Assembly (NCBI GenBank): GCA_937935355.1
Contig: CALGYR010000100.1
Coordinates: forward strand, 3,566-67,565
Reading direction: 5' to 3'
DNA: 64,000 nt
From: an uncultured bacterium
GTDB lineage: Bacteria > Planctomycetota > SZUA-567 > JAKLDR01
Part shown: in pieces, positions 24,241 through 55,408 of the stretch
Numbering within the stretch: position 1 is the first letter of the stretch
Layout: each line of letters begins with the position of its first letter
Made by a program: the position numbers and the translations under genes
The notes under the pieces: model-generated
The model's database searches: none
Told to the model about the DNA's origin: nothing
What the model saw: only the letters and a program-made list of their open reading frames with translations

Positions 24241-24340
24241 GAACCCGGATCTTCTGCCACGGCGATTGCGGCGGCAACCGGTTCTTGCAGCCCCGGCGGC
24301 TTTTGGGTATAAGCGGCGTGTCGACCCGGAGGGACGAGGG

Positions 24341-39632: not shown

Positions 39633-39717
39633 GCCCGCGAGGGACCTCGGATGCCCGTGTAGCCGTCCGGGGAAAGATCGTTGTGAAACCATAAAGCCTC
39701 TTGTACACTTCCGCGCC

Positions 39718-41217
39718 ATGCGCGAAGTGCTTTTCGCCTGGATAGGCAATACGGACCTGAAGGCGGCGGCCGGCCAGACGGATGTTGGACTCGGCCCGAT
39801 CGGCCAGGCGGTCAAGGCGAAGAGCTACGACAAGCTCGTCCTAATCAGCAACTACCCCAAGGCGCAGGCCCAGGAGTACGCCAAGTGGCTATCCGGGCAG
39901 ACCAGGGCCGAGACGCTCGTCCTCCACGAGAAGCTGAGCAGCCCCACGAACTTCGGCGAGATCTACCTGGCGGCCAGGAAGGCGGTCGATGCTGAACTTG
40001 CCTCCGCCCCCGGCGGCGGGGCCCGCCCGACGTTTCACCTGAGCCCCGGCACTCCGGCCATGGCCGCGGTCTGGATCATTCTGGCCAAGGCGTTCTACGG
40101 CGCGGAACTCATCCAGTCGTCCCGCGAAGAGGGGGTCGTGACGGCCTCCGTGCCTTTCGACCTCTCCGCCGAGTTCATCCCCGACCTGCTGCGGAGGCGG
40201 GACGAGGCCATAGAGCGGCTCGCGAGCGCCACGCCGCCGGAGGCCCCGGAGTTCGCCGACATCGTCCACCGGTGCGAGGAGATGAAGCGCGTCGTGGCCA
40301 AGGCGCGCCGCGTGGCCGTCCACGGCGTGCCCGTGCTCATCGAGGGCGAGTCCGGGACCGGCAAGGAGCTCCTGGCCCGCGCCATCCACGACGCAAGTCC
40401 GCGGCGCGATAAGCCTTTCGTCGCCATAAACTGCGGGGCCATCCCGGCGGGCCTGGTGGAGTCGGAGCTTTTCGGCCACGTGAAGGGCGCCTTCAGCGGA
40501 GCCACGGCCGACCGCCAGGGCCGCCTTGAGGACGCCGATGGCGGCACCGTCTTCTTGGACGAGGTCGGCGAGCTTCCGGCCGACGCGCAGGTCAAGCTCC
40601 TGCGCGTGCTCGAGACCGGGGAGGTGACCCCGGTCGGCTCCGGCAAGACCGTCGAGCTCGACGTGCGGGTGCTCGCGGCGACCAACCGGGACCTCATGGC
40701 CGAGGTGACTGCCGGCCGCTTCCGCGAGGACCTCTTCTACCGGCTGGCGGTGGCGGTGCTGTTCCTGCCCCCGCTGCGGGCCAGGAAGGGCGACGTTGGC
40801 CTTCTGATCGACAGGCTGCTCGATCAGGTCGGGAAGGAGCTTCCCGAGGCCGGCAGCAAGAAGCTTTCTGCGGGCGCAAGAAAGCTTATGCTGGCCCACC
40901 CCTGGCGCGGCAACGTCCGGGAACTGCTCAACACTCTGCGGCGGGCGGCGATCTGGTCCGCCGGCGAGGTCATCGACGCCGACGAGATGCGCGAGGCGCT
41001 CCTGAGCGCCGGCGCCGCGCAGGGGACGGAGGTGCTCGGCCAGCCGCTCGGGAACGGCTTCAACCTTCCGGAAACGCTGGGTTTGGTCGCGCGGCACTAC
41101 CTGGAGCGGGCGCTCCAGGAGTCCGGTGGCAACAAGACCAAGGCGGCCGAGCTGCTCGGGCTGCCCAGCTACCAGACGCTGACCAACTGGCTCAAGCGGT
41201 ACGGGGTTGAGGGATGA
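39718..41217 (+). CDS. sigma-54-dependent transcriptional activator with N-terminal CARF-like (RtcR-type) sensor domain
   Basis: AAA+ sigma-54 domain: 'VLIEGESGTGKELLARAIH', GAFTGA-like 'GHVKGAFSGA', 'FREDLFYRL', and a C-terminal Fis HTH. The N-terminal 'HLSPGTPAMAAVWIILAKAFYGAELIQSS' aligns with E. coli RtcR 'HITTGTHVAQICWFLLAEARYLPARLIQSS'. Confidence 0.85.
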   Translation: MREVLFAWIGNTDLKAAAGQTDVGLGPIGQAVKAKSYDKLVLISNYPKAQAQEYAKWLSGQTRAETLVLHEKLSSPTNFGEIYLAARKAVDAELASAPGGGARPTFHLSPGTPAMAAVWIILAKAFYGAELIQSSREEGVVTASVPFDLSAEFIPDLLRRRDEAIERLASATPPEAPEFADIVHRCEEMKRVVAKARRVAVHGVPVLIEGESGTGKELLARAIHDASPRRDKPFVAINCGAIPAGLVESELFGHVKGAFSGATADRQGRLEDADGGTVFLDEVGELPADAQVKLLRVLETGEVTPVGSGKTVELDVRVLAATNRDLMAEVTAGRFREDLFYRLAVAVLFLPPLRARKGDVGLLIDRLLDQVGKELPEAGSKKLSAGARKLMLAHPWRGNVRELLNTLRRAAIWSAGEVIDADEMREALLSAGAAQGTEVLGQPLGNGFNLPETLGLVARHYLERALQESGGNKTKAAELLGLPSYQTLTNWLKRYGVEG

Positions 41218-41218
41218 A

Positions 41219-41234
41219 TGGCACGGAGGTTGCT
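41219..41234 (+). promoter_or_regulatory. near-consensus sigma-54 (-24/-12) promoter upstream of hsdR
   Basis: 'TGGCACGGAGGTTGCT' matches TGGCACG-N4-TTGC exactly. It lies at the 3' end of the activator gene, 15-55 bp before the candidate hsdR starts. Confidence 0.7.
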
Positions 41235-41287
41235 CTGATGCGCAGATCATGCGACTTCTCGATGGACACGACTGGGGAGACTCGCCG

Positions 41288-43576
41288 ATGAGGAACAGAT
41301 CCTCGGAGGCGGACGCCAGGATCGTTATCGACGACCTGCTCCGTCAGGCCGGGTGGGACCCGGCCGACAAGTCCCAGGTGGTCACGGAGTTCCATGTGGC
41401 CGGTTCCCCCCAGACGATAGCCGAGAGCAATCCGGCCTACGGACAAGGTGCGGCAGTGCTGGACGGAAGTGCCGAGCCTATGTCGGAGGCTGGTCCGGGC
41501 AGAGGCGACTACCTGCTTCAGGACCGGCGGGGCCGGCCGCTGGCGGTCGTCGAGGCCAAGAGGGCTGGGACCAATCCTTACTCCGCCAAGCAGCAGACGC
41601 TGCCCTACGCCAAGAAGGTGGGCGCGCCCTTCATCTTCCTGACCAACGGCGAGCTCATCTACTTCTGGGACTACATGAACGATGACGCCCGGATGGTCAA
41701 CTCGTTCTACTCCCGGCGCGACCTGGAACGGCTGGTCGAGATGCGCGCCACCCGCAAGGCTATGGCGACGGTCGAGATCCCGGAGTACTACCTTCGCCAG
41801 GGCGAGAACCGGCAGGTTCGGCCCTACCAGCGCGCCGCCATGCAGGCGCTCGACCACGCCGTCGAGCTCGGCAAGCGCCGCTTCCTGATCGAGTTGCCAA
41901 CGGGCACCGGCAAGACCGATCTCACCTGCCTCTACCTCAAGCGGTTGATCCAGGCCGGCCGGGCCGAGCGCATCCTCTTCCTGGTGGACCGTGAGCAGTT
42001 GGCCAAGCAGGCTCTGGAGGCGTTCCAGGATGTGCTGAGCCAGCACGGTAGCTACTGGCTCCGTCCGGGGATGGCGAGACAGGAGCAGCAGATCACTGTC
42101 TGCCTGCTCCAGACCATGATCGGGCGCTACAAGGAATTCACCAGCGGCTACTTCGACGTGGTCGTGGCCGATGAAAGTCATCGCTCTATCTATGGCGCCT
42201 GGCAGACGGCACTTACGCATTTCGACGCGCTGCACATCGGCCTGACCGCCACGCCCTCGGCCTACATCGAGCGCAACACCTTCGACTTCTACCAGTGCCG
42301 GGATGGCAAGCCGGACTTCTCGTTCCCCATCCAGCAGGCCTTCAAGGAGGGCTACCTCGCTCCCTACCGGTTCGCGTCGGGCATTACCGTCATCCTGGCC
42401 GAGGGCGCCGAGGTCGGGGAGGAGGACTACGACCCGGCCGAGTTCGAGCGCAAGTGGACCAACGAGGACACCAACCGGAAGATGATGCAGGAGTTCGACC
42501 GGCTGGCCTGGGAGAACTACCGCGAGCTGGCGCCCGGCCAGAAGATCGTCCCGGGCAAGGCGGTGGTCTTCGCCATCACCAAGCACCACGCTGCCCGGCT
42601 GGCCCAGTACCTGAACGAACTGCACCCAGAGCTCAAGGGCCGCTACGCCGAGGTTATTACCAGCGACGTGGCCAATGCCGACGAGCTCATCCGCAAGTTC
42701 CGGCGCGAGGACTACCCGCAGGTGGCGGTCAGCGTCGGCATGCTCGACACCGGTTTCGACTGCCGGGAGATCCTGCATCTGGTGATGTGCCGCCGGGTGC
42801 GCAGCCCGATCCTCTACCAACAGATGCGTGGGCGGGGAACCCGTACCGCGCCGCACATCGGCAAGCAGGGCTTCGTCATTTACGACTTCTTCGGCAATCG
42901 CGAGTACTTCAACGACAGTGACGCCGATGCCTTCACCGGCGCTGGCGGCGGACACGCCTCCGGCGGGCGGCCCAAGCCTCCCAGCGAGCCCCGCGACTTG
43001 GTGGAATTGGGGCTCCAGGACGAATGGCTTCACGCTGTGGCCTATGTCGAGGTCGGACCGGAAGGCGAGCGCGTCGACAAGAAGGACTACATCACCAATT
43101 GGCAGAAGACGGTCCAGGGCTCGGCCAAGGACGACCCGGTTATCAGGAAGGTCCGGGACGGCGAGTCCCTGAGCGAGGGTGAGGAGAAGGAACTCGCCGA
43201 CCGGCTCAACCGGCCGGAGATGTATTTCAACGAAGAGAACCTCCGGAGAGCCTACCGCCAGCCAGGCGGCAACTTGATCGACTTCATCAGGGCGGCCCTC
43301 GGCAGCCTCAAGATCAAGAGCCGCGAGGAAGTGCTGACTGAGAACTTCCAGGCTTGGCTGGTGGCCAAGTCACTTACCGCGCAGCAGGCCCAGTACCTGG
43401 CGCTGCTCAAGAACCGCGGCATCGTTCGCGGCAAGATCGAGATGGAGGATCTCTTCAGCCCACCCCTCTCGATCCTCAACGCTGCAGAACTCGGCGTCGA
43501 ACTCTTCGGTGAGAAGGGCTTGAAACAGGTAGTTGCCGACCTTAATGAATCCGTGTTCGGCAAGAAGGGTGCATAG
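41288..43576 (+). CDS. hsdR: type I restriction enzyme R subunit (HsdR) with EcoEI_R_C-like C-terminus
   Basis: HSDR_N nuclease motif 'DYLL..RPLAVVEAKRAG', helicase motifs 'ELPTGTGKT' and 'DESH', and the C-terminal 'AWLVAKSLTAQQAQYLALL'. The alternative ATG is at 41249. Confidence 0.85.
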   Translation: MRNRSSEADARIVIDDLLRQAGWDPADKSQVVTEFHVAGSPQTIAESNPAYGQGAAVLDGSAEPMSEAGPGRGDYLLQDRRGRPLAVVEAKRAGTNPYSAKQQTLPYAKKVGAPFIFLTNGELIYFWDYMNDDARMVNSFYSRRDLERLVEMRATRKAMATVEIPEYYLRQGENRQVRPYQRAAMQALDHAVELGKRRFLIELPTGTGKTDLTCLYLKRLIQAGRAERILFLVDREQLAKQALEAFQDVLSQHGSYWLRPGMARQEQQITVCLLQTMIGRYKEFTSGYFDVVVADESHRSIYGAWQTALTHFDALHIGLTATPSAYIERNTFDFYQCRDGKPDFSFPIQQAFKEGYLAPYRFASGITVILAEGAEVGEEDYDPAEFERKWTNEDTNRKMMQEFDRLAWENYRELAPGQKIVPGKAVVFAITKHHAARLAQYLNELHPELKGRYAEVITSDVANADELIRKFRREDYPQVAVSVGMLDTGFDCREILHLVMCRRVRSPILYQQMRGRGTRTAPHIGKQGFVIYDFFGNREYFNDSDADAFTGAGGGHASGGRPKPPSEPRDLVELGLQDEWLHAVAYVEVGPEGERVDKKDYITNWQKTVQGSAKDDPVIRKVRDGESLSEGEEKELADRLNRPEMYFNEENLRRAYRQPGGNLIDFIRAALGSLKIKSREEVLTENFQAWLVAKSLTAQQAQYLALLKNRGIVRGKIEMEDLFSPPLSILNAAELGVELFGEKGLKQVVADLNESVFGKKGA

Positions 43577-43589
43577 GAGCAAGCCGGGG

Positions 43590-44102
43590 ATGACCAATCT
43601 GCCGACAGTAGACGTGGCCACCCTCTGGAATAGCCTTGAGTGGGTCCGGGGAGGTCTGCAGCGGACCCGGTCGGTGACCTGCCCGCTCTGCGTGACGGAG
43701 GCCCCGAAGGCGGCAGGGCTGTACCGCGTTGCTTGGATTTTGGATGAGGGCTGGGAACGCCTAAGCAAGGTTTTTCATGCTCGGGCAACCAAGAGGATCG
43801 TTGACCCGTCGGTTGGTTTCGCCGCCCTTCAGCCGCCCATTGTCCTTTCTATTGGGCGCACCACGAACATCTTCAGCAGAATCCGCCAGCACTTCGGTAA
43901 TAATCGGAACAGCAATCGCATTCTGAGCCGTCTTCGGCAGATCTCGCCTTCTGAGTGGACTGACGAAGACGTCCGAGGTGCGGCTGCCAAGAGCCTGCAA
44001 GTTGAATGGGCGGTGGTGCCTAACTGGGTGGAGCGCTGCCTGCTGGAGAGCTACGGCAAGGCGATCCAGTCCCCCATCCTCGACCTCGACGCGGAGCACT
44101 AG
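43590..44102 (+). CDS. GIY-YIG-like nuclease domain protein
   Basis: 'GLYRVAW' (GIY-like), 'VLSIGRTTNIFSRIRQH' (YIG plus the conserved Arg), and 'ESYG' with a Glu. The RBS is 'aggagcaagccgggg'. GC is locally lower. Confidence 0.5.
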   Translation: MTNLPTVDVATLWNSLEWVRGGLQRTRSVTCPLCVTEAPKAAGLYRVAWILDEGWERLSKVFHARATKRIVDPSVGFAALQPPIVLSIGRTTNIFSRIRQHFGNNRNSNRILSRLRQISPSEWTDEDVRGAAAKSLQVEWAVVPNWVERCLLESYGKAIQSPILDLDAEH

Positions 44103-44105
44103 TCC

Positions 44106-45776
44106 ATGAACCAGGATCTAAGACGCAAGCTCAACCGGATTACCGACATCCTCTGGGCCGGGGGGGTCACGAACCCGGTCACCTACATCGAACAACTTTC
44201 CTACCTGATCTACCTGAAGATGCTCGACGAGGAGGAGTCCAGCCGGGAACTCAAGGCCCGGTTGACCGGCGGGCAGGCGAACGGCAACGGCAATGGCCGG
44301 CTACTCTTCGCCAAGCAGGCCGAGCGCTACCGCTGGACCAAGTGGCGTTTCAAGAGCGGGGTGGAACTCCGCGACTTCGTCCGGGACGAGGTCTTCCCCT
44401 ACATGGCCTCCCTGGTGAAGGAGGAGCCGCAGATCGCGGAGTACTTCCGGGACGCCGTGCTCGAGATCGTGGACGCCAACGTCCTCAAGCAGGTGGTGGA
44501 CGAGATCGACAGCATCGACTTCGCGAAGCTCGGCACGGACGTCAAGGGTGACATCTTCGAGTACCTGCTCACCCACCTGGGCCAGTCGGCGCTCAACGGC
44601 CAGTTCCGCACGCCGCGTCAGATCCGCACCATGATGGTCGAAATGGTCGCCCCGGACCTCGGCGATACGGTCTACGATCCGGCCGCCGGCACCGGCGGCT
44701 TTCTGATCGATGCCGTGGAGCATATCCTGGCCAAATACTCCACCGAGCCGCAGGAGGTGCCCATCTACGGCGAGGAGTGGCTGGAGAGCCGGGGCCAGAC
44801 GCTTGCGGAGGCCAGGAAGGCCGTCCCGGCGCTCCAAACCTACCGCAAGGGGCCGGGCGAGCGCGTTCCCGACTGGAAGCTGCTCGAAGGGGCCATTTAC
44901 GGGATCGACGTGTCGCGGCAGATGATGCGGATCGCCATGATGAACCTGGTGCTCCACGGCATCCGCAAGGCTAACGTCAAGCGGGCCAATACGCTCTCCG
45001 ACATGGGCGGCCTGACCGAGGACGACCTGGCCCGCCGGTACAAGGTCATCCTCTCGAATCCACCCTTTGCCGGCGTGCTCCCCAAGGAGTCCGTGAGGAA
45101 GGACCTGCCCACCAACTCCAAGAAGAGCGAGCTGCTCTTCCTGGGAGTCATGATGGAAGCGCTCGCCCCGGGCGGGCGCTGCGCCGTGGTGGTGCCCGAG
45201 GGGCTGCTCTTCGGGTCCACCTCCGCTCACACTGAGCTTCGTCGGAAGTTGCTCGACGACTACCAACTCCTGGCCGTGGTCTCCCTCCCCGCCGGCGTCT
45301 TCAAGCCTTATGCCGGGGTCAAGACCGGCGTTCTGGTCTTCCGTAAGCCGGAAAGCGCTACGAAGGACAAGAAGAAGCCCGAGGGCAAGGTCTGGTTCTA
45401 CGAGATCCGGAACGACGGCTACGACCCGGACAAGATCCAGGGCGGCGGCCGGCCGGAGACGCCGGCGAAGAACGACATCCCCGACCTGCTCGCCCAGTGG
45501 GCGGAGTACCGGAAGTCCGGCTTCAGGAAGCCTCCGGGCGTGGAGGCCGGGACGCTCCTGGAGGCCGGCAGCCCCGAGCCGCGCTCGTGGTGGGCGCCGC
45601 TTAAGGCCATCGCCGAGAACGAGTTCAACCTGGCCGCCGGGCGGTACAAGCCGCAGGTGGCGGAGAAGGCTCCGGAGGATGACCCGGCGGAACTGATCCG
45701 CGAGACGGCCGAGGTCGAGCGGGAGATCCTTGGCGGGTTGGAGAAGCTGCTGAAGGATGTGGAGGCTGCCCAGTGA
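44106..45776 (+). CDS. hsdM: type I restriction-modification system methyltransferase subunit (HsdM)
   Basis: HsdM_N-like N-terminus, AdoMet motif 'VYDPAAGTGGFL', and the catalytic 'SNPPFAG' motif. Confidence 0.9.
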   Translation: MNQDLRRKLNRITDILWAGGVTNPVTYIEQLSYLIYLKMLDEEESSRELKARLTGGQANGNGNGRLLFAKQAERYRWTKWRFKSGVELRDFVRDEVFPYMASLVKEEPQIAEYFRDAVLEIVDANVLKQVVDEIDSIDFAKLGTDVKGDIFEYLLTHLGQSALNGQFRTPRQIRTMMVEMVAPDLGDTVYDPAAGTGGFLIDAVEHILAKYSTEPQEVPIYGEEWLESRGQTLAEARKAVPALQTYRKGPGERVPDWKLLEGAIYGIDVSRQMMRIAMMNLVLHGIRKANVKRANTLSDMGGLTEDDLARRYKVILSNPPFAGVLPKESVRKDLPTNSKKSELLFLGVMMEALAPGGRCAVVVPEGLLFGSTSAHTELRRKLLDDYQLLAVVSLPAGVFKPYAGVKTGVLVFRKPESATKDKKKPEGKVWFYEIRNDGYDPDKIQGGGRPETPAKNDIPDLLAQWAEYRKSGFRKPPGVEAGTLLEAGSPEPRSWWAPLKAIAENEFNLAAGRYKPQVAEKAPEDDPAELIRETAEVEREILGGLEKLLKDVEAAQ

Positions 45777-47041
45777 AGTGGCACTCGCCAAGGCTATCCA
45801 GACTTGCCCAGATCATCCGGGGCGTCTCGTTCGACAGCTCCGAGGCTAGCCCCACGCCAATTGCGGGGCATGTCCCTATCCTGCGCGCCGGCAACATCGG
45901 CCGCGACCTGGACACAGAGAATGACCTGATCTGGGTCCCGGCAGCCAGGGTGTCAGACGAACAAAGGCTCAAGGCAGGTGACATCGCGATTGCCATGTCG
46001 TCAGGAAGCTCCAATATCGTCGGGAAGACAGCACAGTTGAACCAAGCGTGGGACGGCTCCGTGGGGGCCTTCTGCGCGATCATCCGCCCGTTGGAGACTG
46101 TGAGCGCCGCATATCTCGGGTACTGGCTTCTTGGTCCCACCTTCACCGCATGGCGGCAATCGCAGTGTATGGGGCTGAACATCAAGAACTTGCGGAAGGC
46201 GGAGATCGAGTGCCTGGAAATCCCGCTCCCTCCTCCCTCCGAGCAGCACCGGATCGTGGAGATCCTCGACCAGGCCGACGCCCTGCGCCGGAAGCGCGCC
46301 GAGGCCGACGCCAAGGCCGGGCGCATCCTGCCGGCGCTCTTCTACAAGATGTTCGGGGATCCGGCGACGAATCCGAAGGGGTGGCCGGTGGTGCCTATCA
46401 GCAAGCTGGTTGAACCCATCGAACGGAGAGACCCCTCCGTTCAACCCGAAGAGCCTTTCACCTACATCGATATCGCGAGTGTGAATGGCCAGTTAGGCGT
46501 CATCACCGACACCAAAGCCTTGATGGGCGCAGAAGCTCCCAGCAGGGCGCGGCAGATTGTCAGGGCGAACGATGCAATCATCTCGACCGTCCGCCCATAC
46601 CTTCGAGCGACGGCATTAGTGCCTACGCAACATGACAACCAGATTTGCAGCACCGGATTCTGCGTCTTGAGGGCAAAGACAGGGGTGGGATTTGGCTTCT
46701 TGTATGCTCTTTCCCGCTTGCAGTGGTTCACAGACCAGCTTAACGCACGTGCCCGTGGAGCGTCATATCCGGCCGTGACGGATGCAGACGTTCTCAACCT
46801 GCGCGTGCCGCGACAGACCGACCGGGAAACACTTCAGATATTTGATCGCCAGGTGCTCGATGTCCTTGTGCAACAGGACAAGCGACGTGGAGTTGCATGC
46901 AGACTTGGTGTCTTGTTCGAGACGCTTCTCCACCGCGCTTTCACCGGCGACCTAATGGCCGGTTGGCGCGAGGCGCACATGAATGAACTCCAAATAGAGA
47001 TGGAATCACAGGCCAGAATGCTGAAGGGGGGCGATGAATGA
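45773..47041 (+). CDS. hsdS: type I restriction-modification specificity subunit (HsdS), two TRDs
   Basis: A 4 bp overlap with hsdM. The conserved central and C-terminal repeats are 'LEIPLPPPSEQHRIVEILDQADALRRKR' and 'LRVPRQTDRETLQIFDRQVLDV'. Confidence 0.85.
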   Translation: MKWHSPRLSRLAQIIRGVSFDSSEASPTPIAGHVPILRAGNIGRDLDTENDLIWVPAARVSDEQRLKAGDIAIAMSSGSSNIVGKTAQLNQAWDGSVGAFCAIIRPLETVSAAYLGYWLLGPTFTAWRQSQCMGLNIKNLRKAEIECLEIPLPPPSEQHRIVEILDQADALRRKRAEADAKAGRILPALFYKMFGDPATNPKGWPVVPISKLVEPIERRDPSVQPEEPFTYIDIASVNGQLGVITDTKALMGAEAPSRARQIVRANDAIISTVRPYLRATALVPTQHDNQICSTGFCVLRAKTGVGFGFLYALSRLQWFTDQLNARARGASYPAVTDADVLNLRVPRQTDRETLQIFDRQVLDVLVQQDKRRGVACRLGVLFETLLHRAFTGDLMAGWREAHMNELQIEMESQARMLKGGDE

Positions 47042-47673
47042 TCAGGATCAGTCTGAAGGGCCTAGCCAAATTCATGACCGGCAACTCCGCCAAGCAGCGC
47101 AAAGTTCTCAGGGACTACAAATACCCCGATCCAGAGGGGCATGCGCAGGCAACCTACTACCGAGAGGCCAGAGACTTCATCGTGTCCCATCACCAGAGTG
47201 GGCACAGCCCCCTCTGGCTCCCGGAGAGGGCCGCAATTCTCGACACGCTGGCATCTCAGTCGGCAGGGCAAACCAAAGTCCGCCTTCGCAATAATGCCCG
47301 GGCACTTCGAGAGTACGCGAACCACTTTGGGAAGCGGACATTCAAGGTGCTGCGCGATGTGAATCTCGGCATCGAACACGCCGGCGTTCTGGTAACCTTC
47401 GCTCCTGACCTCCACATCAAGGAAGGCGAGAAGGAGAAGATCATCAGACTTGACTTCACCAAGGAACCTCCTGACGACAAGACCGTCAAGATCATCACTC
47501 AGGCGATGTTTGAGGCGCAGGCAACTCTCGGGATGGGCTTGCCAAGTGCCGCAGTGCTCTACCTGGATGTGCCCCGTGGCCAAACGCACAAGGGTGCCAG
47601 GGCGGGGTCTCGGATGCGCACTGAGATCGAAGCGGCCTGCAAGAACATCTCTGCTCTGTGGGATGGAATCTAG
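47038..47673 (+). CDS. hypothetical protein (211 aa) translationally coupled to hsdS
   Basis: ATGA overlap with the hsdS stop. No recognisable domain. GC is lower. Confidence 0.5.
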   Translation: MIRISLKGLAKFMTGNSAKQRKVLRDYKYPDPEGHAQATYYREARDFIVSHHQSGHSPLWLPERAAILDTLASQSAGQTKVRLRNNARALREYANHFGKRTFKVLRDVNLGIEHAGVLVTFAPDLHIKEGEKEKIIRLDFTKEPPDDKTVKIITQAMFEAQATLGMGLPSAAVLYLDVPRGQTHKGARAGSRMRTEIEAACKNISALWDGI

Positions 47674-47682
47674 GGGAACAAG

Positions 47683-49404
47683 ATGCTCACCGCCCTCCAA
47701 CTCGCCCGCTTCAAGGCCTTTGGCGACCTCCAGCGCGTCCCGATCAAGCCGATCACCCTGATCTACGGCCCGAACAGCGCCGGGAAGTCGAGCCTGATCC
47801 ACAGCCTGATCCTGGCCCGCCAGGCGGCCGAGACCGGCGAACTGGACGTCCACCGCACCCCGGTCGGCGGCGACTCGGTGGACCTGGGCGGCTTCCGGCA
47901 ATACGTCCACCGGCGCAACGCCGGCGAGCGGGTCGAGTGGGCCATGGAGCTCGATACCAGCCGTTTCACTGGGCGCCTGGCTACGCTTCTGGCGGCGGCC
48001 AAGGTGGTTACAGCTCGCGTCGAGGTCGGCTTGGCTCACGAGGAGAAGAAGCGCAAGCGTTTCGTCCTCGATCCCCGGACCGACAAGGCAATCGAGATCG
48101 AGGAACCCACCGGCGAGATGGTGGCCGTGGGGCAACCCGCAATCCAGAGCTTCAAATTGGAGGCCGACTCCACGCCACTCCTGGAGATGAGCCGCCGGCC
48201 GAGCGGCGGCTTCCGGCTGGACAGACTGCACCATGGGCATGCCGTGTTCCGGGAGGTGATCAAGGCCATAGTGGCAGCCTCCACGACGACGGAGTCGTTG
48301 CAGCCGTCCGACTACGAAGGTCTGGACAAGGCAATAGACGCCCTTGTCCCCGACATAGTCGCCACCTGCCGCGGTTTACTACCGGATGGTCTGGCGAAAG
48401 CCGAAGGGCCGGATTCGGAGAAGCCTCCCACGTTGTTTCCAATCAGCAAGGGCCGCCGGCAGGAGGACTTGGCCGCCGCAGTCCGCTTCTTCGTGCCCCG
48501 TACTATTGAAGAACTGCTCAAGGGCGTGAGCCAGACGGTGGGCTTCGAGCTCGACCGATTGCATTATCTCGGACCGCTGCGCTCCTACCCGCCGCGACAC
48601 TTGGCATTTGCCCAGCACCACGATCCCAACTGGATCGCGGGTGGTGGATATGCATGGGACGCGGTGCGGCGGGACGGCAGAGTGCGCGCTCAAGTGAACG
48701 AGTGGTTGGGTGCCAAGAACCGGCTGCAGACGCCTTACGAACTTACCCTGCGTGAACTGGTGGGCGTGGATCAACTGGAGACGCCGATATCCGAAGGCAT
48801 CGAGAATCATCTGGGTCGCGAGGCTGAAGCAAGCAAAGGCCCTGTTGAGGTTGCCGATGATCTAGAGATTAGCAGGTTGCCGTTCCCTGACTTGCTGGAT
48901 GAGCTCCTAACGGCCATCAATTCGGCCGACATCGAGAAACTAGACGAACTTATTCTGAAGGACTGTCGATCCAATACGGTTGTCAGCCACCGCGACGTTG
49001 GCATCGGCATCAGCCAAGTGCTCCCGGTGCTCGTCAGCGCCTACGCCTCCCAGGACCGCCTGGTGGCCATCGAGCAACCGGAGATCCATCTGCATCCCAA
49101 GCTCCAGGCCGAGCTGGGCGACGTGTTTCTGGAGTCCGCCCTCGGCGAGCGCCGGAACACCTTCCTGCTCGAGACCCACAGCGAGCACGTCCTGCTCCGC
49201 ATCATGAAGCGCATGCGCCAGATGGCCGACGGCAGCCTGCCCGAGGGCCTGCCCAAGGTGCGCCCGGAGGATGTGGCGGTGCTCTACGTCGAGCCGGACG
49301 GCTCCCGGAGCATCGTCCGGGAGATGCCGCTCAACGAGCGCGGCGACCTGGTCAAAGCCTGGCCCGGCGGGTTCTTCGAAGAAGGCCTCGACGAGATGTT
49401 CTGA
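47683..49404 (+). CDS. AAA_21/OLD-family ABC-type ATPase (RloA/PtuA/AriA-like)
   Basis: Walker A 'IYGPNSAGKSSL' and D-loop/Walker B region 'LVAIEQPEIHLHP...LLETHSEHVL'. No C-terminal Toprim domain was seen. Confidence 0.75.
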   Translation: MLTALQLARFKAFGDLQRVPIKPITLIYGPNSAGKSSLIHSLILARQAAETGELDVHRTPVGGDSVDLGGFRQYVHRRNAGERVEWAMELDTSRFTGRLATLLAAAKVVTARVEVGLAHEEKKRKRFVLDPRTDKAIEIEEPTGEMVAVGQPAIQSFKLEADSTPLLEMSRRPSGGFRLDRLHHGHAVFREVIKAIVAASTTTESLQPSDYEGLDKAIDALVPDIVATCRGLLPDGLAKAEGPDSEKPPTLFPISKGRRQEDLAAAVRFFVPRTIEELLKGVSQTVGFELDRLHYLGPLRSYPPRHLAFAQHHDPNWIAGGGYAWDAVRRDGRVRAQVNEWLGAKNRLQTPYELTLRELVGVDQLETPISEGIENHLGREAEASKGPVEVADDLEISRLPFPDLLDELLTAINSADIEKLDELILKDCRSNTVVSHRDVGIGISQVLPVLVSAYASQDRLVAIEQPEIHLHPKLQAELGDVFLESALGERRNTFLLETHSEHVLLRIMKRMRQMADGSLPEGLPKVRPEDVAVLYVEPDGSRSIVREMPLNERGDLVKAWPGGFFEEGLDEMF

Positions 49405-50345
49405 TGGCTCTGCTTGCCGAATACGCTCTGACCCCGGACGTCTTCGACTCGGCTTCCTACGCCGGCGAGGAGATCGGCGATCTGCACCTGTCCCATCTCA
49501 AGGAGGCGCTCCTGGACGACGGGGTTGTCCGGAGCCTGCGTAACGGCGAGTGGCTGGCGCAGTTTAGCGGTGACGGTCGCATGTGGCACCGCCGCGGCAA
49601 GGAGCTACTTCACAAGCTGGACAAGCAAGGACGGCTGAGGGCCTGCGCCCCCGTGGGCAACGCCTGCCCGGCAGTTGACTGTGACTGGTGCCATGAGGCC
49701 TTGGGTTCTCACGCCCGTCTCCCGCTTGGCGGGATCGTGGTGACAGACTGTGTCGCGTCAGCCTTCGTGGGGAACCCACTGGTGGCCTCGGTCACGAAGC
49801 TCCCGGCAGCACAATGGTGGAGCGAGCGAAGCCCATCGGCCCGTCTGGTACGGACGAAAGTCGAGTACCAGCGGCACCTTGGCCTGCTTCTGGAGTGTTC
49901 GCGGTCCATTGCCTTCATCGACGCACATCTGGATCCCAGCCAAGGCCGCTACAAGGACTTCGTTGCCATCCTCGCCGGCATGGCGGGCATGAAGCGGGTG
50001 CCGCGGATAGAACTGCATCGCGTATGCCACTCGCAGTTGCGCGGAGAGAAGCCCGACAAGAGGCCGGATCCCGAGCTCAGGCCACTGTTCTTGCGAGAGC
50101 TGTCCTCCCCGTTGAAGGCGGCCGGAATGTCCATCGAGGCGTTCTTCTGGGACGACTTCCATGATCGCCACATCGTCAGCAATCTTGCGGTCCTGCATCT
50201 GGGCAATGGCCTGGATACCACCACCCATCCAAGCGCGATGACTACGTGGACTAGGCTAGGTCGACGTGAAGCCGACGATGTGCGGCGTGAGTTCGATCCT
50301 GCAAGCGGTCGCCACACGCTGGTAGAACGCTTCCCCATTCCATGA
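49404..50345 (+). CDS. hypothetical protein (313 aa), partner of the ATPase
   Basis: A 1 nt TGATG overlap with the ATPase stop. No recognisable domain. Confidence 0.5.
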   Translation: MALLAEYALTPDVFDSASYAGEEIGDLHLSHLKEALLDDGVVRSLRNGEWLAQFSGDGRMWHRRGKELLHKLDKQGRLRACAPVGNACPAVDCDWCHEALGSHARLPLGGIVVTDCVASAFVGNPLVASVTKLPAAQWWSERSPSARLVRTKVEYQRHLGLLLECSRSIAFIDAHLDPSQGRYKDFVAILAGMAGMKRVPRIELHRVCHSQLRGEKPDKRPDPELRPLFLRELSSPLKAAGMSIEAFFWDDFHDRHIVSNLAVLHLGNGLDTTTHPSAMTTWTRLGRREADDVRREFDPASGRHTLVERFPIP

Positions 50346-50608
50346 AACGCCGCAAAGCCAATCCCCAACCCGAATTCGAGCCCACCCGCATCTCGGGCTT
50401 CCGCCCCGTGGCGTTCTTCTTCGCCCTGATCGCCTTCTACCTCCTGGGCCTGACCATCTGGAGCCCATTCTACATCCTCTGGCCCCGCCGCTACCCGGGG
50501 ACGAACTGGTTCCAGTCCGTGGCCATCCGCGGCAGCCTGGTCTGGCAGCTCTGGTCGCGGTACGTCTTTGGGCAGGCCTGGGGGCTGCTGCGCGGCCGGC
50601 ACCGGTAG
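50342..50608 (+). CDS. small membrane protein (88 aa)
   Basis: ATGA overlap with the upstream stop. Two hydrophobic helices: 'FRPVAFFFALIAFYLLGLTIW'. Confidence 0.45.
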   Translation: MKRRKANPQPEFEPTRISGFRPVAFFFALIAFYLLGLTIWSPFYILWPRRYPGTNWFQSVAIRGSLVWQLWSRYVFGQAWGLLRGRHR

Positions 50609-50609
50609 G

Positions 50610-50640
50610 GTTCTCAACCACGAAACACACGAAATACACG
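50610..50640. repeat. three direct 9-bp CACGAAANN units
   Basis: 'cacgaaacacacgaaatacacgaaaga', immediately after the stop of the small TM gene. Confidence 0.55.
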
Positions 50641-50739
50641 AAAGAGGCTTCGAGAGCCGCCGAACGGTGAGCAGGAAGTGTTTCGCCGAGGTTAGCTACC
50701 AAGCCTTCGTGAGGGGCCGGAACCGGGGACATGGAGACC

Positions 50740-50860
50740 CGGTCGTTGTTGTTGTTCACACAGAGCCGCGGAGCCACGGAGAACGGCAAACCAGGCCGTT
50801 GTTGTCCTCTGTGTCTCTGCGTCTCCGTGTGAGAAACAGCCGTTGCTGTTGCCATCATCC
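50740..50860. repeat. family D hairpin
   Basis: 'cacacagagccgcggagccacggagaacgg-N25-gtcctctgtgtctctgcgtctccgtgtgagaa'. Confidence 0.65.
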
Positions 50861-50866
50861 TGCACG

Positions 50867-51685
50867 TCACAAGTCCTCCGCCGCGTACACCAACTCCTTC
50901 TGGAGCTTGGTGAGGGCTCTCTGGGCCTGGCTCCGCAGCTGCCAGAGACGGTCCAGATCGCCGGGGTCGCTCACCGCCGCCTGGGCCAGTTCGGCGCTGG
51001 CGCGCAGGAGCGCCAGGGCGGTGCTCTGCAATGCCGGCCCCCCCTTCAGCTTCCGGGTGGTGTTCACGATCCCGTCGATGACGGGCTGCCAGTCAGCGCG
51101 GGGTTTGCTTGCTTTTGTGGGGGCCGGCTGCGCCAGTTCCGGTTCCAGCGTCGTGACGACTTGGTCGCGGCGCTTGGCGGTCGCGTACTCTTCCCTTAAC
51201 CTGGCGCGGATACCGGGGCCGAAGGTCATGGGGTAGGTGGCAAGCCAGCCGTCGTAGACTATCCTGCTCTTGAACGGCAACAGCACCGTTCGCACCATTA
51301 CAGGCATGGGCCCCAGGCTGAACAAGTCCTCGAAGCTCTCGGACAGGCCCAAAACTCCGTAGGCGCGCGAACCGCCGAGCAGGATGGCGTGGTTCTTCAG
51401 AAACCGGAAGACATAGAAGTCGCCGGCCACGAAGCGTTTCCACTTCTGTACGATCTCCAGTTCGTCCGCCGGCAGTTTGTCCGGATTGTCCCTGACGTAG
51501 GCGTCGATCAGGTCCGGTTCCTTCCACAATGCCTCCCTTGTCCGGTACTTATCGTCTTTGGGCAACGCGGCAAACGCCTCCGCGGACGTGGTATCCGGGA
51601 GCAGGCCGCGCTGTCTGCCGACGTAGGACTGAAGTCCCCATATCAAGCGATAGAACAGGGCGGCTTCTTCCTTCTCCAACTTCAC
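50867..51685 (-). CDS. hypothetical protein (about 272 aa)
   Basis: The listed 411 aa ORF has a GC-artefact N-terminus. The real start is probably the GTG at 51685, overlapping the upstream stop (GTGA). Confidence 0.45.
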   Translation of the reverse strand: MKLEKEEAALFYRLIWGLQSYVGRQRGLLPDTTSAEAFAALPKDDKYRTREALWKEPDLIDAYVRDNPDKLPADELEIVQKWKRFVAGDFYVFRFLKNHAILLGGSRAYGVLGLSESFEDLFSLGPMPVMVRTVLLPFKSRIVYDGWLATYPMTFGPGIRARLREEYATAKRRDQVVTTLEPELAQPAPTKASKPRADWQPVIDGIVNTTRKLKGGPALQSTALALLRASAELAQAAVSDPGDLDRLWQLRSQAQRALTKLQKELVYAAEDL

Positions 51686-52078
51686 GTCCTTCCCCTGCCA
51701 GGCCGGCCGGCTGCGTGGTCCCCGGCTTCGCCCTCTCCGGCGTGGCCCCGCCGGAGCCCTTCGAGCGCCTCGATTCTCGCCCGGGTCTCCTCCGACAGGT
51801 TCTCCACATGTTCCGGGCCCAGGAGGTCGTGCTGCTTCAACTGGAACAGCTTGGCGAAGAGCGTCGACCGGCTCCAGTCGTCGAAGCAGTCGGCGACGAT
51901 GCGGTTGGAGTCCTTGAGGTGCCGGTAGAGCCGGCGGTATTTGTCGGCTTCGGACTGCCCGGCGGCCGCGAGGATGTCCATCGACTGCCGGTTGATGCGC
52001 CCGAACAGGGCGGCGAGCAGCTCCTCCTGGGCCTTCCGCATGTACTTCCAGTCGCGCTCGGGGATGTCTCTGGACATG
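51682..52078 (-). CDS. hypothetical protein (132 aa)
   Basis: Starts at 'MSRDIPERDWKYMRKAQEEL'. Coupled to its flanking genes by overlaps. Confidence 0.45.
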
Positions 52079-52079
52079 C

Positions 52080-52607
52080 TTAGCCTCCCGTTCTCTCCGC
52101 ACCCCGGCCGCCCCTCGCCCGGGTCCACTCCCGGGATGGCGGGGGCTCCGCTATGGGCGGCTCGATGCCTGCCGGGAACCATCCGCCGCGGGTCATTTGC
52201 AGCTCCTTGTAGGTTTTGAACATGAAGGCATGTTTGAGGACTTCGGCCGGAGGCCTGGGGTGCTTCATGTTCTCCCGCCAGTGCTTCTTCTCCAGTGTGC
52301 CGAAGACCAGATAGTCGCCGCCGATCAAGTCGGGGTCCAACTCCACGAACAGGTCGGTGAGCAGGCGTTCGATCTCGTGCTTGTGGGCGGCCAACAGGTC
52401 GCAGCCCCGGCAGTAGCGGCAGGTGTAGTTGAGGGCGACCATCCGCTTCTCGCCGACGTCGATCAGCAGGGGAAGCTTGCGCTGTCCGGTCTTGCGGTGG
52501 CAGACAGGGCAGATCGAGAGCCGCACGTCGGGATAGGGGTTCATGATGAACCCGTATCTGCGGGGCGGCTCCCCTGCACTCGGATCCCAGGCCTTGGCCA
52601 TATCCAT
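52080..52607 (-). CDS. hypothetical zinc-ribbon protein
   Basis: 'CPVCHRK...CRYCRGC', a four-Cys arrangement. Confidence 0.5.
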   Translation of the reverse strand: MDMAKAWDPSAGEPPRRYGFIMNPYPDVRLSICPVCHRKTGQRKLPLLIDVGEKRMVALNYTCRYCRGCDLLAAHKHEIERLLTDLFVELDPDLIGGDYLVFGTLEKKHWRENMKHPRPPAEVLKHAFMFKTYKELQMTRGGWFPAGIEPPIAEPPPSREWTRARGGRGAERTGG

Positions 52608-52623
52608 ATGTTGTCTCCTGTCG

Positions 52624-53370
52624 CTACTTGCGTTGTTCTTCGGCGCCCCCCGGTCCCCGGTCCTCCATGTTCACCTCAAGGCCGTTCTCCCGGCACCACT
52701 CGAGAATGGCCGCTCGGGTCGCCTCATTCTCGAAATCGTGCCACTTCTGGAGCAGGCCGTGGCGCTCGAGCAGGTCCTTGTAGCGGCCGTAGGCGCCGCG
52801 CCGGCTGAAAATCCGGCCGACCTCCCCGGCGAGCTGCGGCGCGTGCCGGTTCACGAAGTTCCCGACCAGGTCGGCGCCCAGGTCCAGGTCGTTCTTGTGA
52901 GGGATCGAGAGGTAGTCTTCCCCGCCCGCGTCCTCGGGCATCTCGTCCATGTCCGCCATCTCGGAGGAGAAGAAGGTCTGCCCCGTCTTCCGGTGGATGC
53001 AGGCGGAGTGATCGCCGTACGGTGCAGAACCCACGAAGTCGAACGCCATTTCGACTTCGGAAAACTTGATGGCCATGCGCTTCTCCTTTGACAGGTTGTC
53101 CGGCTTGGAAACTCCAGCGTCCGGGGGCTGCTGCGCGGCTGCGTCTCTGTTCAACTCGTACTGGTAGAGCTCCTCCCACATCTCGTTCTGGGCAAGCCAG
53201 ACGGGGTCGGCGTTCCTGGCGACGAATTCGTCGACGGGCATCCCGTCGATGGTCGGCGGACGCCTTACCCGCTTCTGCTTGCCGTTGACGAAGATGGTCA
53301 TGAACTCGAGCCGGCGCCGCCGTTTCTCGGCCTTCTCCTTGGCGGTCAGCTTGCGCTTGCGGCGTGACAC
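52624..53370 (-). CDS. hypothetical protein with Lys/Arg-rich N-terminus
   Basis: 'MSRRKRKLTAKEKAEKRRRRLEF'. No recognisable domain. Confidence 0.5.
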   Translation of the reverse strand: MSRRKRKLTAKEKAEKRRRRLEFMTIFVNGKQKRVRRPPTIDGMPVDEFVARNADPVWLAQNEMWEELYQYELNRDAAAQQPPDAGVSKPDNLSKEKRMAIKFSEVEMAFDFVGSAPYGDHSACIHRKTGQTFFSSEMADMDEMPEDAGGEDYLSIPHKNDLDLGADLVGNFVNRHAPQLAGEVGRIFSRRGAYGRYKDLLERHGLLQKWHDFENEATRAAILEWCRENGLEVNMEDRGPGGAEEQRK

Positions 53371-53379
53371 GGGGTGCCG

Positions 53380-55189: not shown

Positions 55190-55408
55190 TGCGCGATTCC
55201 TCTGCCGGACCGTCCGGCATTGTAGCGGGCCGGGCGGCGGTTGCATGGACATGATACTTCGGGCAGGAGGGCGGTCAAGGATGATCATCTGTCGGCGCCA
55301 TGCCCGCGGCCTGGAGGACCAACACGCCCATACCGATCGGCCGCCCCCGGGATGATTCCCCCCTCCGCCCGTCGTTTAGTCAGTGCGCCGAGGGGGAGCC
55401 GCACTACT

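What the first reader, a model, noticed from the sequence alone, without database searches (positions are those of the whole stretch)
41219..50608. Near-perfect sigma-54 promoter driving a nine-gene overlapping defense operon
TGGCACGGAGGTTGCT (exact TGGCACG-N4-TTGC) sits in the last codons of the activator gene, 15-55 bp before the hsdR start candidates. Downstream, hsdR, a GIY-YIG gene, hsdM, hsdS, ORF211, the ATPase, ORF313 and the small TM gene are separated by 14 bp or less, or overlap (ATGA/TGATG junctions). This implies one inducible transcript. Restriction systems driven by sigma-54 are unusual.
Basis: seen in the sequence. Interest (0 to 1): 0.8.

Follow-up and report, generated by a model that had tools for sequence, protein, structure and literature searches.

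The report
Sigma-54 switch driving a restriction operon
A textbook sigma-54 promoter sits directly after the stop codon of a CARF-sensor activator gene and almost certainly switches on a Type I restriction system plus a second nuclease module; the arrangement recurs in more than ten bacterial phyla, and earlier surveys had already predicted this regulator-to-restriction link.

Summary
TGGCACGGAGGTTGC (41219-41233) is the only exact TGGCAC-N5-TTGC in the 64 kb window. It lies 1 nt after the activator's stop codon, not inside its last codons. Eight tightly packed genes follow, nine counting the activator.

The activator (39718-41217) has a CARF sensor domain, a sigma-54 AAA+ domain and a Fis-type HTH. 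It belongs to the RtcR-like family.

In 80 homologous loci from more than ten phyla, 62 carry a -24/-12 match of at least 9/10 at this exact spot. The remaining 1.43 Mb holds only the number expected by chance. The first downstream gene is HsdR-like in 53 of 80 loci. An NsnB-like ATPase with a PIN/PLD-fold partner often follows.

I also found a tandem dyad (AAG-N4-CTT, 20-nt period) in two places: over the activator's own promoter, and inside its coding sequence about 360 nt upstream of the sigma-54 promoter. The internal copy is held by extreme synonymous-site conservation. These are candidate enhancer sites.

Makarova et al. 2014 and Bell et al. 2024 already noted RtcR-like regulators heading restriction superoperons. 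The cis-element map appears to be new. Nothing here is experimentally tested.

The parts
39672..39708 (+). Tandem dyad block 1 (GAAAG-N4-GTTGT ... TAAAG-N4-CTTGTA, 20-nt period). It overlaps a sigma-70-like -35/-10 (TACACT at 39704-39709) 8 nt before the activator ATG. Candidate operator/enhancer and probable leaderless-mRNA promoter.
   Evidence: The pattern AAG-N4-CTTGT-N8-AAG-N4-CTTGTA is found at a fixed distance upstream of the activator start, with at most 3 mismatches, in 43 of 79 loci. Coordinates. No Shine-Dalgarno sequence lies before the ATG (sequence).
39718..41217 (+). Activator gene, 499 aa: N-terminal CARF domain, sigma-54 AAA+ domain with a GAFSGA loop (40486-40503), AAA lid and Fis-type HTH. 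An RtcR-like enhancer-binding protein.
40858..40887 (+). Tandem dyad block 2 inside the activator coding sequence (AAGAAGCTTTCTGCGGGCGCAAGAAAGCTT), about 360 nt upstream of the sigma-54 promoter. Candidate enhancer (UAS).
   Evidence: The four lowest-entropy four-fold-degenerate sites of the whole gene (of 268) fall within this 8-codon stretch. The element is conserved at -353 to -365 in about 65 of 81 loci. A matrix trained only on the upstream dyads of other loci scores it 27.7 bits, against 2.6 bits for the best site elsewhere in 25 kb. It is the best non-upstream hit in 74 of 81 loci. It uses codons that end in A/T (CTT, TCT, GCA, AGA, CTT) in a 68% GC genome.
41219..41234 (+). Sigma-54 promoter TGGCACGGAGGTTGCT, with the -24 GG at 41220-41221 and the -12 GC at 41232-41233. 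Predicted transcription start about 41244-41246.
   Evidence: Only exact match in the window. The same element lies 0-4 nt after the activator stop codon in 62-66 of 81 loci. The unselected G at position +6 is conserved in 52 of 66.
41288..43576 (+). hsdR, 762 aa, with an EcoEI-type C-terminal domain. Shine-Dalgarno GGGGAG at 41274-41279, giving a leader of about 43 nt.
   Evidence: Pfam ResIII, EcoEI_R_C, HSDR_N. PADLOC REase_I 6.6e-80. 66-76% identity to the first gene after the promoter in 17 loci.
43590..44102 (+). ORF189 (170 aa from ATG 43590). An unassigned insert between hsdR and hsdM, with only a sub-threshold GIY-YIG resemblance.
   Evidence: Pfam GIY-YIG E=0.023, below the cut-off. 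No PADLOC hit. No homologue in 80 loci.
44106..45776 (+). hsdM, the Type I N6-adenine methyltransferase.
   Evidence: N6_Mtase 1.3e-49, HsdM_N. PADLOC MTase_I 1.6e-138.
45773..47041 (+). hsdS, the specificity subunit.
   Evidence: Methylase_S. PADLOC Specificity_I 3.3e-53.
47038..47673 (+). ORF211, unknown function. It is called as a gene in the public assembly.
   Evidence: No Pfam or PADLOC hit. No homologue in related loci. Gene call in L081.
47683..49404 (+). ABC-type ATPase with a DUF3696 tail, resembling Menshen NsnB, HEC-03B and PDC-M55A.
   Evidence: AAA_21, AAA_15, DUF3696. PADLOC PDC-M55A 1.4e-42, NsnB 1.3e-41, HEC-03B 2.4e-40. Homologues in 32 of the 80 loci.
49404..50345 (+). ORF313: a PIN-like N-terminal half and a phospholipase-D-fold C-terminal half with an invariant H253-D254-R255. 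Probable effector partner of the ATPase.
50342..50608 (+). ORF88, a small hydrophobic protein. Last gene before a convergent gene.
   Evidence: ATGA overlap with ORF313. Called as a gene in L081. No family hit and no homologue in related loci.

Best explanation
This is a self-contained inducible expression cassette attached to a defence operon.

Basal state (inferred). The activator gene is transcribed from its own sigma-70-type promoter, probably as a leaderless mRNA. A tandem dyad overlaps that promoter, so the activator probably represses itself. No terminator separates the activator from hsdR: the sigma-54 promoter starts 1 nt after the stop codon. Read-through should therefore give a low basal level of the Type I enzyme, enough to keep the chromosome methylated.

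Induced state (shown by homology only). The CARF domain binds an infection or stress signal, either a cyclic oligoadenylate-like nucleotide or RNA ends with a 2',3'-cyclic phosphate as in RtcR. This releases the AAA+ domain. The activator then assembles on its dyad sites, looping from the intragenic site about 360 nt upstream. It uses ATP and its GAFSGA loop to open the sigma-54 closed complex at 41219-41233.

Output. Transcription from about 41245 raises expression of hsdR-ORF189-hsdM-hsdS-ORF211-ATPase-ORF313-ORF88. That is a Type I restriction enzyme plus a Menshen-like ATPase with a PLD-fold effector.

What is shown: the presence and conservation of every cis and trans part. What is inferred: the ligand, the looping, the basal read-through and the single transcript.
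For: - The promoter is exact and unique in the window.
- It is conserved at the activator stop codon in 62-66 of 81 loci across more than ten phyla, while matches elsewhere in 1.43 Mb are at chance level (57 observed, about 52 expected).
- The cargo is consistent. HsdR is the first gene in 53 of 80 loci. ATPase plus ORF313-like partner sits directly after the promoter, with no HsdR gene in between, in L010, L037 and L066; L016, L035 and L039 also start with the ATPase. Fused methyltransferase systems occur in other loci.
- The dyad sites have extreme synonymous constraint inside the gene, and a matrix trained on the upstream sites finds the intragenic site in 74 of 81 loci.
- In 7 loci a second, divergent sigma-54 promoter lies within about 150 nt upstream of the dyads, consistent with classical enhancer spacing.
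- Junctions are tight and terminator-like signals do not exceed chance.
- A GC dip across 41-55 kb marks an acquired island.
- The prediction agrees with PMC4012209 and PMC11090510.
Against: - No transcript, sigma-54 binding or ligand data exist for this family.
- rpoN is not in the window, so its presence in this genome is unverified.
- The activator has GAFSGA instead of the family's GAFTGA. From my own knowledge this substitution is tolerated in PspF, but it was not tested here.
- An enhancer 360 nt upstream, let alone 1.5 kb, is farther than the usual 80-150 nt.
- An R-M system that depends on induction risks self-restriction unless basal methylation exists. That basal expression is only inferred.
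- ORF189, ORF211 and ORF88 have no homologues, so their place in the operon rests on spacing alone.
Confidence: 0.8

Rival explanations
1. The operon is essentially constitutive. It is transcribed by read-through from the activator's own promoter and from unrecognised internal promoters. The sigma-54 promoter contributes little or is used only rarely.
For: No terminator can fit between the activator stop and the promoter. R-M systems need continuous methylation. The sigma-70 scan is tuned to E. coli and could miss promoters in a 68% GC organism.
Against: A vestigial promoter would not stay within 9-10 of 10 consensus positions at the same nucleotide offset in 62 of 81 loci from many phyla. The activator's sigma-54-contact and ATPase motifs are also under strong conservation.
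Confidence: 0.1
2. The promoter is functional, but the eight genes are not one transcript. The Type I genes and the ATPase/ORF313/ORF88 module are separate units with their own regulation.
For: The ATPase plus ORF313 pair occurs as an independent module directly behind the promoter, with no HsdR gene in between, in L010, L037 and L066. Variable inserts (ORF189, ORF211; DUF1016 nuclease or a kinase in L083) show that the operon is modular. Bell et al. expect internal promoters in such superoperons (PMC11090510).
Against: Gaps are 13 nt or less, with four overlapping stop/start junctions. Terminator-like hairpins do not exceed chance (9 found, 9.5 expected). There is no second sigma-54 motif in the operon.
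Confidence: 0.2
3. The conserved intragenic element at 40858-40887 is not the activator's enhancer. It could be the site of another protein or an RNA-level signal in the activator mRNA.
For: It lies about 360 nt from the promoter, farther than usual. In the window it can form a 9-bp hairpin (AAGCUUUCU/AGAAAGCUU).
Against: Only the TTTCT/AGAAA core is conserved, and the flanking hairpin positions neither pair nor covary in other loci. The element matches, in sequence and 20-nt tandem spacing, the dyads upstream of the gene. Those dyads sit at roughly enhancer distance from divergent sigma-54 promoters in 7 loci.
Confidence: 0.25
4. The motif is a chance match with no promoter function.
For: 8 of 100 shuffles of the window contain at least one exact match somewhere.
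Against: The match is on the correct strand, in the 70-nt gap between an enhancer-binding protein gene and an operon. The same element is at the same place in 62 other loci.
Confidence: 0.02

Closest known systems
RtcR / rtcBA RNA-repair regulon of E. coli and Salmonella
   Same: The activator has the same three-part layout: CARF sensor, sigma-54 AAA+ domain and HTH (PADLOC RtcR models 2e-58 to 9e-191). The target is a sigma-54 promoter next to the regulator gene.
   Different: The cargo is a Type I R-M system plus a nuclease module, with no RtcA or RtcB among the eight profiled genes. The regulator is co-directional with its target and the promoter abuts its stop codon, whereas rtcR is divergent from rtcBA (my own knowledge). 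The ligand is unknown.
RtcR_PspF2 CARF-AAA+-HTH family, 'often associated with R-M systems' (Makarova et al. 2014, PMC4012209), and RtcR homologues heading defence superoperons (Bell et al. 2024, PMC11090510)
   Same: This locus is a full-length match to that family's profile (E=8.8e-191). It shows the described arrangement: the regulator at the 5' end of a co-directional operon containing HsdR, HsdM and HsdS.
   Different: No CoCoNuT/McrBC genes follow here. In the passages I retrieved, those papers (read by keyword search, not in full) predicted sigma-54 dependence but did not map the promoter, its fusion to the stop codon, or the dyad sites.
PspF / pspA promoter
   Same: A sigma-54 activator that binds tandem upstream sites which also overlap, and probably auto-repress, its own sigma-70 promoter. 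This is my own knowledge of PspF; the same layout is inferred here.
   Different: PspF has no sensor domain and is controlled by PspA. Its sites lie 80-130 nt from the promoter in a divergent intergenic region, not inside a coding sequence.
Menshen (NsnABC) anti-phage system
   Same: The ATPase has the NsnB layout of an ABC ATPase plus a DUF3696 tail (PMC12065111). Like NsnC, ORF313 combines a PIN-like N-terminal half with a nuclease-fold C-terminal half.
   Different: No DUF262/ParB-type NsnA is present, and ORF211 in that position has no detectable domain. ORF313 matches no PADLOC NsnC model. Its PLD-type motif is H-D-R rather than the canonical HxK (canonical motif from my own knowledge).
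C-protein (controller) regulation of Type II R-M systems
   Same: A dedicated transcription factor encoded at the head of the R-M operon sets restriction-enzyme levels.
   Different: C proteins are small sigma-70-dependent HTH autoregulators that time establishment in a new host. Here the regulator is a signal-sensing ATPase acting through sigma-54, and the system is Type I.

Membership tests
Sigma-54 (RpoN)-dependent promoter | GG and GC doublets exactly 10 nt apart within a TGGCAC-N5-TTGC(A/T) consensus | tested here: met
   TGGCACGGAGGTTGCT at 41219-41234 matches 10/10 specified positions, plus the G at +6 and the T after GC.
Sigma-54 (RpoN)-dependent promoter | Located upstream of, and on the same strand as, a gene, with a cognate enhancer-binding protein available | tested here: met
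   It lies 54 nt before the hsdR ATG at 41288, and the activator gene ends 1 nt before it.
Sigma-54 (RpoN)-dependent promoter | Conservation of the element in orthologous positions | tested here: met
   62 of 81 loci have a match of at least 9/10 within 3 nt of the same offset. Background matches are at chance level.
Sigma-54 (RpoN)-dependent promoter | rpoN present in the genome; transcription start 11-13 nt after the GC; dependence on rpoN | not testable with these tools
   There is no RpoN box in the 64-kb window. The source is a metagenome contig. No expression data are available.
Bacterial enhancer-binding protein (NtrC/PspF class) | AAA+ sigma-54 interaction domain with Walker A/B motifs and a GAFTGA loop | tested here: met
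   PF00158 E=2.9e-68. GESGTGKE and FLDEVGEL are present. The loop is GAFSGA at 40486-40503, a T-to-S variant, while the family consensus is GAFTGA.
Bacterial enhancer-binding protein (NtrC/PspF class) | C-terminal Fis-type HTH and identifiable upstream activating sequences | tested here: inconclusive
   HTH_8 E=4e-8. Candidate dyad sites were found by conservation, but binding is untested.
RtcR-like CARF-AAA+-HTH regulators | N-terminal CARF (Rossmann-like) sensor domain | tested here: met
RtcR-like CARF-AAA+-HTH regulators | Control of the rtcBA RNA-repair genes (RtcR proper) | tested here: not met
   None of the eight downstream genes is RtcA or RtcB. The locus therefore belongs to the R-M-associated sister family, not to RtcR itself.
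Type I restriction-modification system | HsdR (nuclease plus SF2 motor), HsdM (N6-adenine methyltransferase) and HsdS (two target-recognition domains) encoded together | tested here: met
   Pfam and PADLOC hits for all three. HsdS matches across residues 1-394.
Menshen (NsnABC) | NsnA with a ParB/DUF262 domain | tested here: not met
   No DUF262 hit in any operon protein. ORF211 has no hit even at E up to 5.
Menshen (NsnABC) | NsnB: ABC ATPase with a DUF3696 tail | tested here: met
   PADLOC NsnB 1.3e-41; Pfam AAA_21, AAA_15 and DUF3696.
Menshen (NsnABC) | NsnC: inactive-PIN N-terminal domain plus a nuclease effector domain | tested here: inconclusive
   The fold search shows PIN-like and PLD-like halves, but there is no sequence-profile match to NsnC.

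The most novel reading that the evidence does not exclude
The unit [auto-regulated promoter - CARF activator gene carrying its own enhancer inside the coding sequence - sigma-54 promoter fused to the stop codon] is a portable plug-in switch. It has spread horizontally across more than ten phyla and puts DNA restriction under the control of an infection signal. Restriction and a PLD-nuclease module would then be boosted on alarm rather than being purely constitutive. An enhancer maintained by synonymous-site selection within the regulator's own gene would be an unusual cis-regulatory solution.
Probability: 0.5. Interest if true: 0.75.

Novelty: new member of a known kind. Interest (0 to 1): 0.6.

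Why it matters
Type I restriction enzymes are generally treated as constitutive housekeeping barriers. If this cassette works as read, restriction and a second nuclease module in many environmental bacteria are wired to a CARF sensor through sigma-54. That would link innate DNA restriction to signal-based immunity of the kind known from type III CRISPR and RtcR.

The mapped parts make the long-standing 2014 prediction directly testable: a promoter at a fixed position, two dyad blocks, and a compact 1.6-kb regulator unit. They also offer a tightly off, strongly inducible expression module. The large, highly conserved family (55-63% identity across the 80 fetched loci, 71-74% in the two nearest relatives) gives many candidates for finding the ligand.

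Tried and rejected
- **Other sigma-54 sites in the window.** Only one 1-mismatch hit exists (24255), and its GG doublet is broken.
- **GG-N10-GC alone.** Uninformative: 1556 hits, at chance level.
- **E. coli-type sigma-70 scan of 38-53 kb.** No sites. Terminator-like hairpins are at chance level.
- **Rfam scan of the whole window.** No match.
- **Sequence search of the activator against the PDB.** It matched only the AAA+/HTH part, so the CARF call needed a structure model.
- **Antisense sigma-54 reading of the intragenic element.** Rejected because the spacing does not fit.
- **RNA hairpin reading of the intragenic element.** Rejected because only the 5-nt cores are conserved and the flanks do not pair in other loci.
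- **AAG-N4-CTT clusters at -760/-720.** Attributed to ordinary codon conservation, as there is no synonymous-site dip there.
- **ORF189 as GIY-YIG.** Only a sub-threshold hit.
- **ORF211, ORF88 and the upstream ORF554.** No family, no PADLOC hit and no homologue in 80 loci.
- **Literature.** Searches for experimental work on sigma-54-driven R-M found none. One id guessed from memory for the 2020 CARF classification paper was not held.
- **Start codon error.** My first guess of 39748 for the activator start was wrong by 10 codons. It was corrected to 39718.


Full report
**1. The observation**

The sequence TGGCACGGAGGTTGCT lies at 41219-41234 on the + strand. It is the only exact TGGCAC-N5-TTGC in the 64-kb window on either strand. 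Dinucleotide shuffles give 0.09 on average, and 8 of 100 shuffles contain at least one. The only one-mismatch hit, at 24255, has a broken GG.

The motif is not inside the activator gene. That gene ends with TGA at 41215-41217, so the promoter begins one base after the stop codon.

- hsdR stop to ORF189 ATG: 13 nt
- ORF189 to hsdM: 3 nt
- hsdM/hsdS: GTGA overlap
- hsdS/ORF211: ATGA overlap
- ORF211 to ATPase: 9 nt
- ATPase/ORF313: TGATG overlap
- ORF313/ORF88: ATGA overlap

That makes eight genes after the promoter, or nine with the activator. The likely hsdR start is ATG 41288. It has a GGGGAG Shine-Dalgarno at 41274-41279 and aligns with the called start of the closest same-type locus, L083. 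This gives a leader of about 43 nt from a predicted start near 41245.

**2. The genes**

*Activator.* Its true start is ATG 39718, giving 499 aa. It carries a sigma-54 interaction AAA+ domain (PF00158, 2.9e-68), an AAA lid and a Fis-type HTH. It matches NifA, NtrC1, ZraR and PspF structures and has a GAFSGA loop at 40486-40503.

*Restriction system.* The operon encodes a complete Type I system. HsdR has an EcoEI-type C-terminus, followed by HsdM and HsdS.

*Unassigned ORFs.* Three ORFs (189, 211, 88) have no family hit and no homologue in the 80 related loci.

*Island context.* GC content falls from about 0.70 to 0.57-0.66 between 41 and 55 kb. A HEC-01 candidate system lies on the other strand at 53380-55288. 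The whole stretch looks like an acquired defence island.

**3. Comparative test of the promoter**

A scan of one genome per species returned 80 loci encoding relatives of the activator (55-63% identity). By record title they come from Myxococcota, Planctomycetota, Desulfobacterota, Gammaproteobacteria, Acidobacteriota, Latescibacterota, Binatota, Gemmatimonadota, Spirochaetia, Nitrospiraceae and others.

- 71 of 81 loci, counting the window, have a match of at least 9/10 in the window from 30 nt upstream to 200 nt downstream of the stop codon.
- 66 of those lie within 10 nt of the stop codon, most often as TGA|TGGCACG.
- The G following TGGCAC was not used for selection, yet it is conserved in 52 of 66.
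- Over all 1.43 Mb of these loci and both strands, 62 matches (at least 9/10, with intact GG and GC) sit at this one position. Only 57 lie elsewhere, where about 52 are expected by chance.

The element is therefore under strong selection at a fixed place.

**4. What the cassette drives elsewhere**

The first gene after the promoter is HsdR-like in 53 of 80 loci, usually followed by HsdM and HsdS. The NsnB-like ATPase occurs in 32 loci and the ORF313 family in 21.

In L010, L037 and L066 the ATPase and its ORF313-like partner directly follow the promoter with no HsdR gene in between; L016, L035 and L039 also begin with the ATPase. About nine loci carry a fused 1240-1420-aa methyltransferase protein instead. 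Two carry DUF4007 plus an MmeI/Eco57I-type enzyme.

The two nearest relatives of the activator (74% and 71% identity) have the same layout, with different inserted genes. The cargo is thus consistently DNA restriction/modification plus this ATPase module, with variable accessory slots. The window's ORF189 and ORF211 occupy two such slots.

**5. Candidate enhancer sites (new here)**

*Inside the gene.* I built a codon alignment of the 81 activator genes. The four least variable four-fold-degenerate sites of the whole gene (of 268) fall within one 8-codon stretch. In the window this stretch lies within 40858-40887: AAGAAGCTTTCTGCGGGCGCAAGAAAGCTT. It is a run of codons ending in A/T in a 68% GC genome. 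The consensus AAgAAacTTTCTgcnggcGCAAgaAAtcTT recurs at -353 to -365 from the promoter in about 65 loci.

*Upstream of the gene.* Just before the activator start codon, most loci carry AAG-N4-CTTGT-N8-AAG-N4-CTTGTA. In the window this is 39672-39708. The block also reads as a sigma-70 -35 (TTGyGn) and -10 (TAnnnT) element ending 6-9 nt before the start codon, with no Shine-Dalgarno. This suggests a leaderless mRNA and an operator overlapping the promoter.

*The two blocks match.* I trained a position matrix only on the upstream dyads of 42 other loci and scored it as a tandem pair 20 nt apart. It picks the intragenic site as the best hit outside the upstream block in 74 of 81 loci. The median score is 20.6 bits against 1.4 bits elsewhere; in the window it is 27.7 against 2.6.

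*Divergent promoters.* In seven loci a second sigma-54 promoter points away from the activator gene and lies within about 150 nt upstream of the dyads, consistent with classical enhancer spacing. About 0.2 such matches are expected by chance.

I therefore read the dyads as the binding sites of the activator's HTH domain. Binding itself is untested.

**6. Mechanism**

The best-supported model is an inducible boost layered on a basal level.
- Basal: read-through from the activator's own promoter. No terminator can fit, because the sigma-54 promoter abuts the stop codon. This would keep the chromosome methylated.
- Induced: ligand binding to the CARF domain releases the AAA+ ring. The ring assembles on the dyads and opens the sigma-54 closed complex, raising the restriction enzyme and the ATPase/PLD-fold module together.

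The ligand is unknown. The closest structural neighbours bind cyclic oligoadenylates. RtcR is proposed to respond to tRNA fragments with cyclic-phosphate ends (PMC10159003, cited in PMC11090510).

**7. Relation to what is known**

Makarova et al. 2014 (PMC4012209) reported that a family resembling RtcR, with the same CARF, NtrC-type AAA+ and HTH domains, is 'often associated with restriction-modification systems'. They predicted it to be a sigma-54-dependent activator of the downstream genes.

Bell et al. 2024 (PMC11090510) described RtcR homologues at the 5' end of co-directional superoperons that include Type I R-M.

I found no paper mapping the promoter, the stop-codon fusion or the enhancer sites, and no experimental test. 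The library does not cover all journals.

**8. Verdict**

The locus is a new member of a kind that has been predicted but not characterised. The added value here is the conserved cis-regulatory architecture. All functional steps remain inferences.

Noticed in passing
window 53380-55288 (- strand): A second candidate defence system lies on the opposite strand. An AAA_21 ATPase (54071-55288) matches PADLOC HEC-01A at 1e-141. A DUF4276 protein (53380-54237) matches HEC-01B at 4e-72.
   Followed up: partly
window about 41000-55000: GC content drops from about 0.70 in the flanks to 0.57-0.66. This is consistent with a horizontally acquired defence island spanning both systems. No tRNA gene or integrase was looked for at the borders.
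   Followed up: partly
L022, L024, L027, L046, L055, L070, L071, upstream of the activator gene: A second sigma-54 promoter (at least 9/10, exact in L071) lies on the opposite strand, within about 150 nt upstream of the tandem dyads. It faces other genes, including a large ATPase and a UvrD-like helicase in L055. In these loci the activator may control two divergent operons.
   Followed up: partly
L003:11511-14252 (also L005, L011, L018, L020, L040, L049, L050, L061, L065): The closest HsdR relatives are about 913 aa and carry an N-terminal Peptidase_S24 (LexA/UmuD-like) domain (Pfam-confirmed only for L003) that the window's 762-aa HsdR lacks. The more distant group (L029 and others, about 1130 aa) carries DUF4145 instead. 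A conserved TGGCAC-N5-CTGC lies at about +457 inside the S24-type genes.
   Followed up: no
L001, L004, L008, L014, L015, L017, L021, L022 promoters: A subgroup of eight loci, most labelled Myxococcales/Myxococcota or Deltaproteobacteria and all with the roughly 1140-aa HsdR, has TTGA instead of TTGC at the -12 element (TGGCACG-N4-TTGAA). The normally invariant GC is replaced by GA.
   Followed up: no
window 39704-39720: The activator gene has no Shine-Dalgarno, and its ATG lies 8 nt after a -10-like TACACT. The same 6-9-nt spacing is seen in related loci, suggesting a leaderless mRNA.
   Followed up: partly
window 37968-39632 (+ strand): A 554-aa ORF immediately upstream of the activator has no Pfam or PADLOC hit and no homologue next to the activator in any of the 80 related loci.
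   Followed up: no
window 49404-50345 and 742 database homologues: The ORF313 family is entirely unannotated and has no Pfam domain. It has an invariant H-D-R triplet (H253, D254, R255) in the PLD-fold half, where canonical PLD nucleases have HxK. Whether it is catalytically active is open.
   Followed up: partly
L083:15551-16477 and 17790-18671: In the 71%-identical relative, a DUF1016/YhcG PD-(D/E)xK nuclease sits between hsdM and hsdS, and a Ser/Thr kinase follows hsdS. These are the equivalents of the window's variable slots occupied by ORF189 and ORF211.
   Followed up: no
window 45778-45783: TGGCAC occurs at the start of hsdS (GTGAAGTGGCAC) but has no TTGC partner at the right spacing. 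It is judged to be a coincidence.
   Followed up: yes
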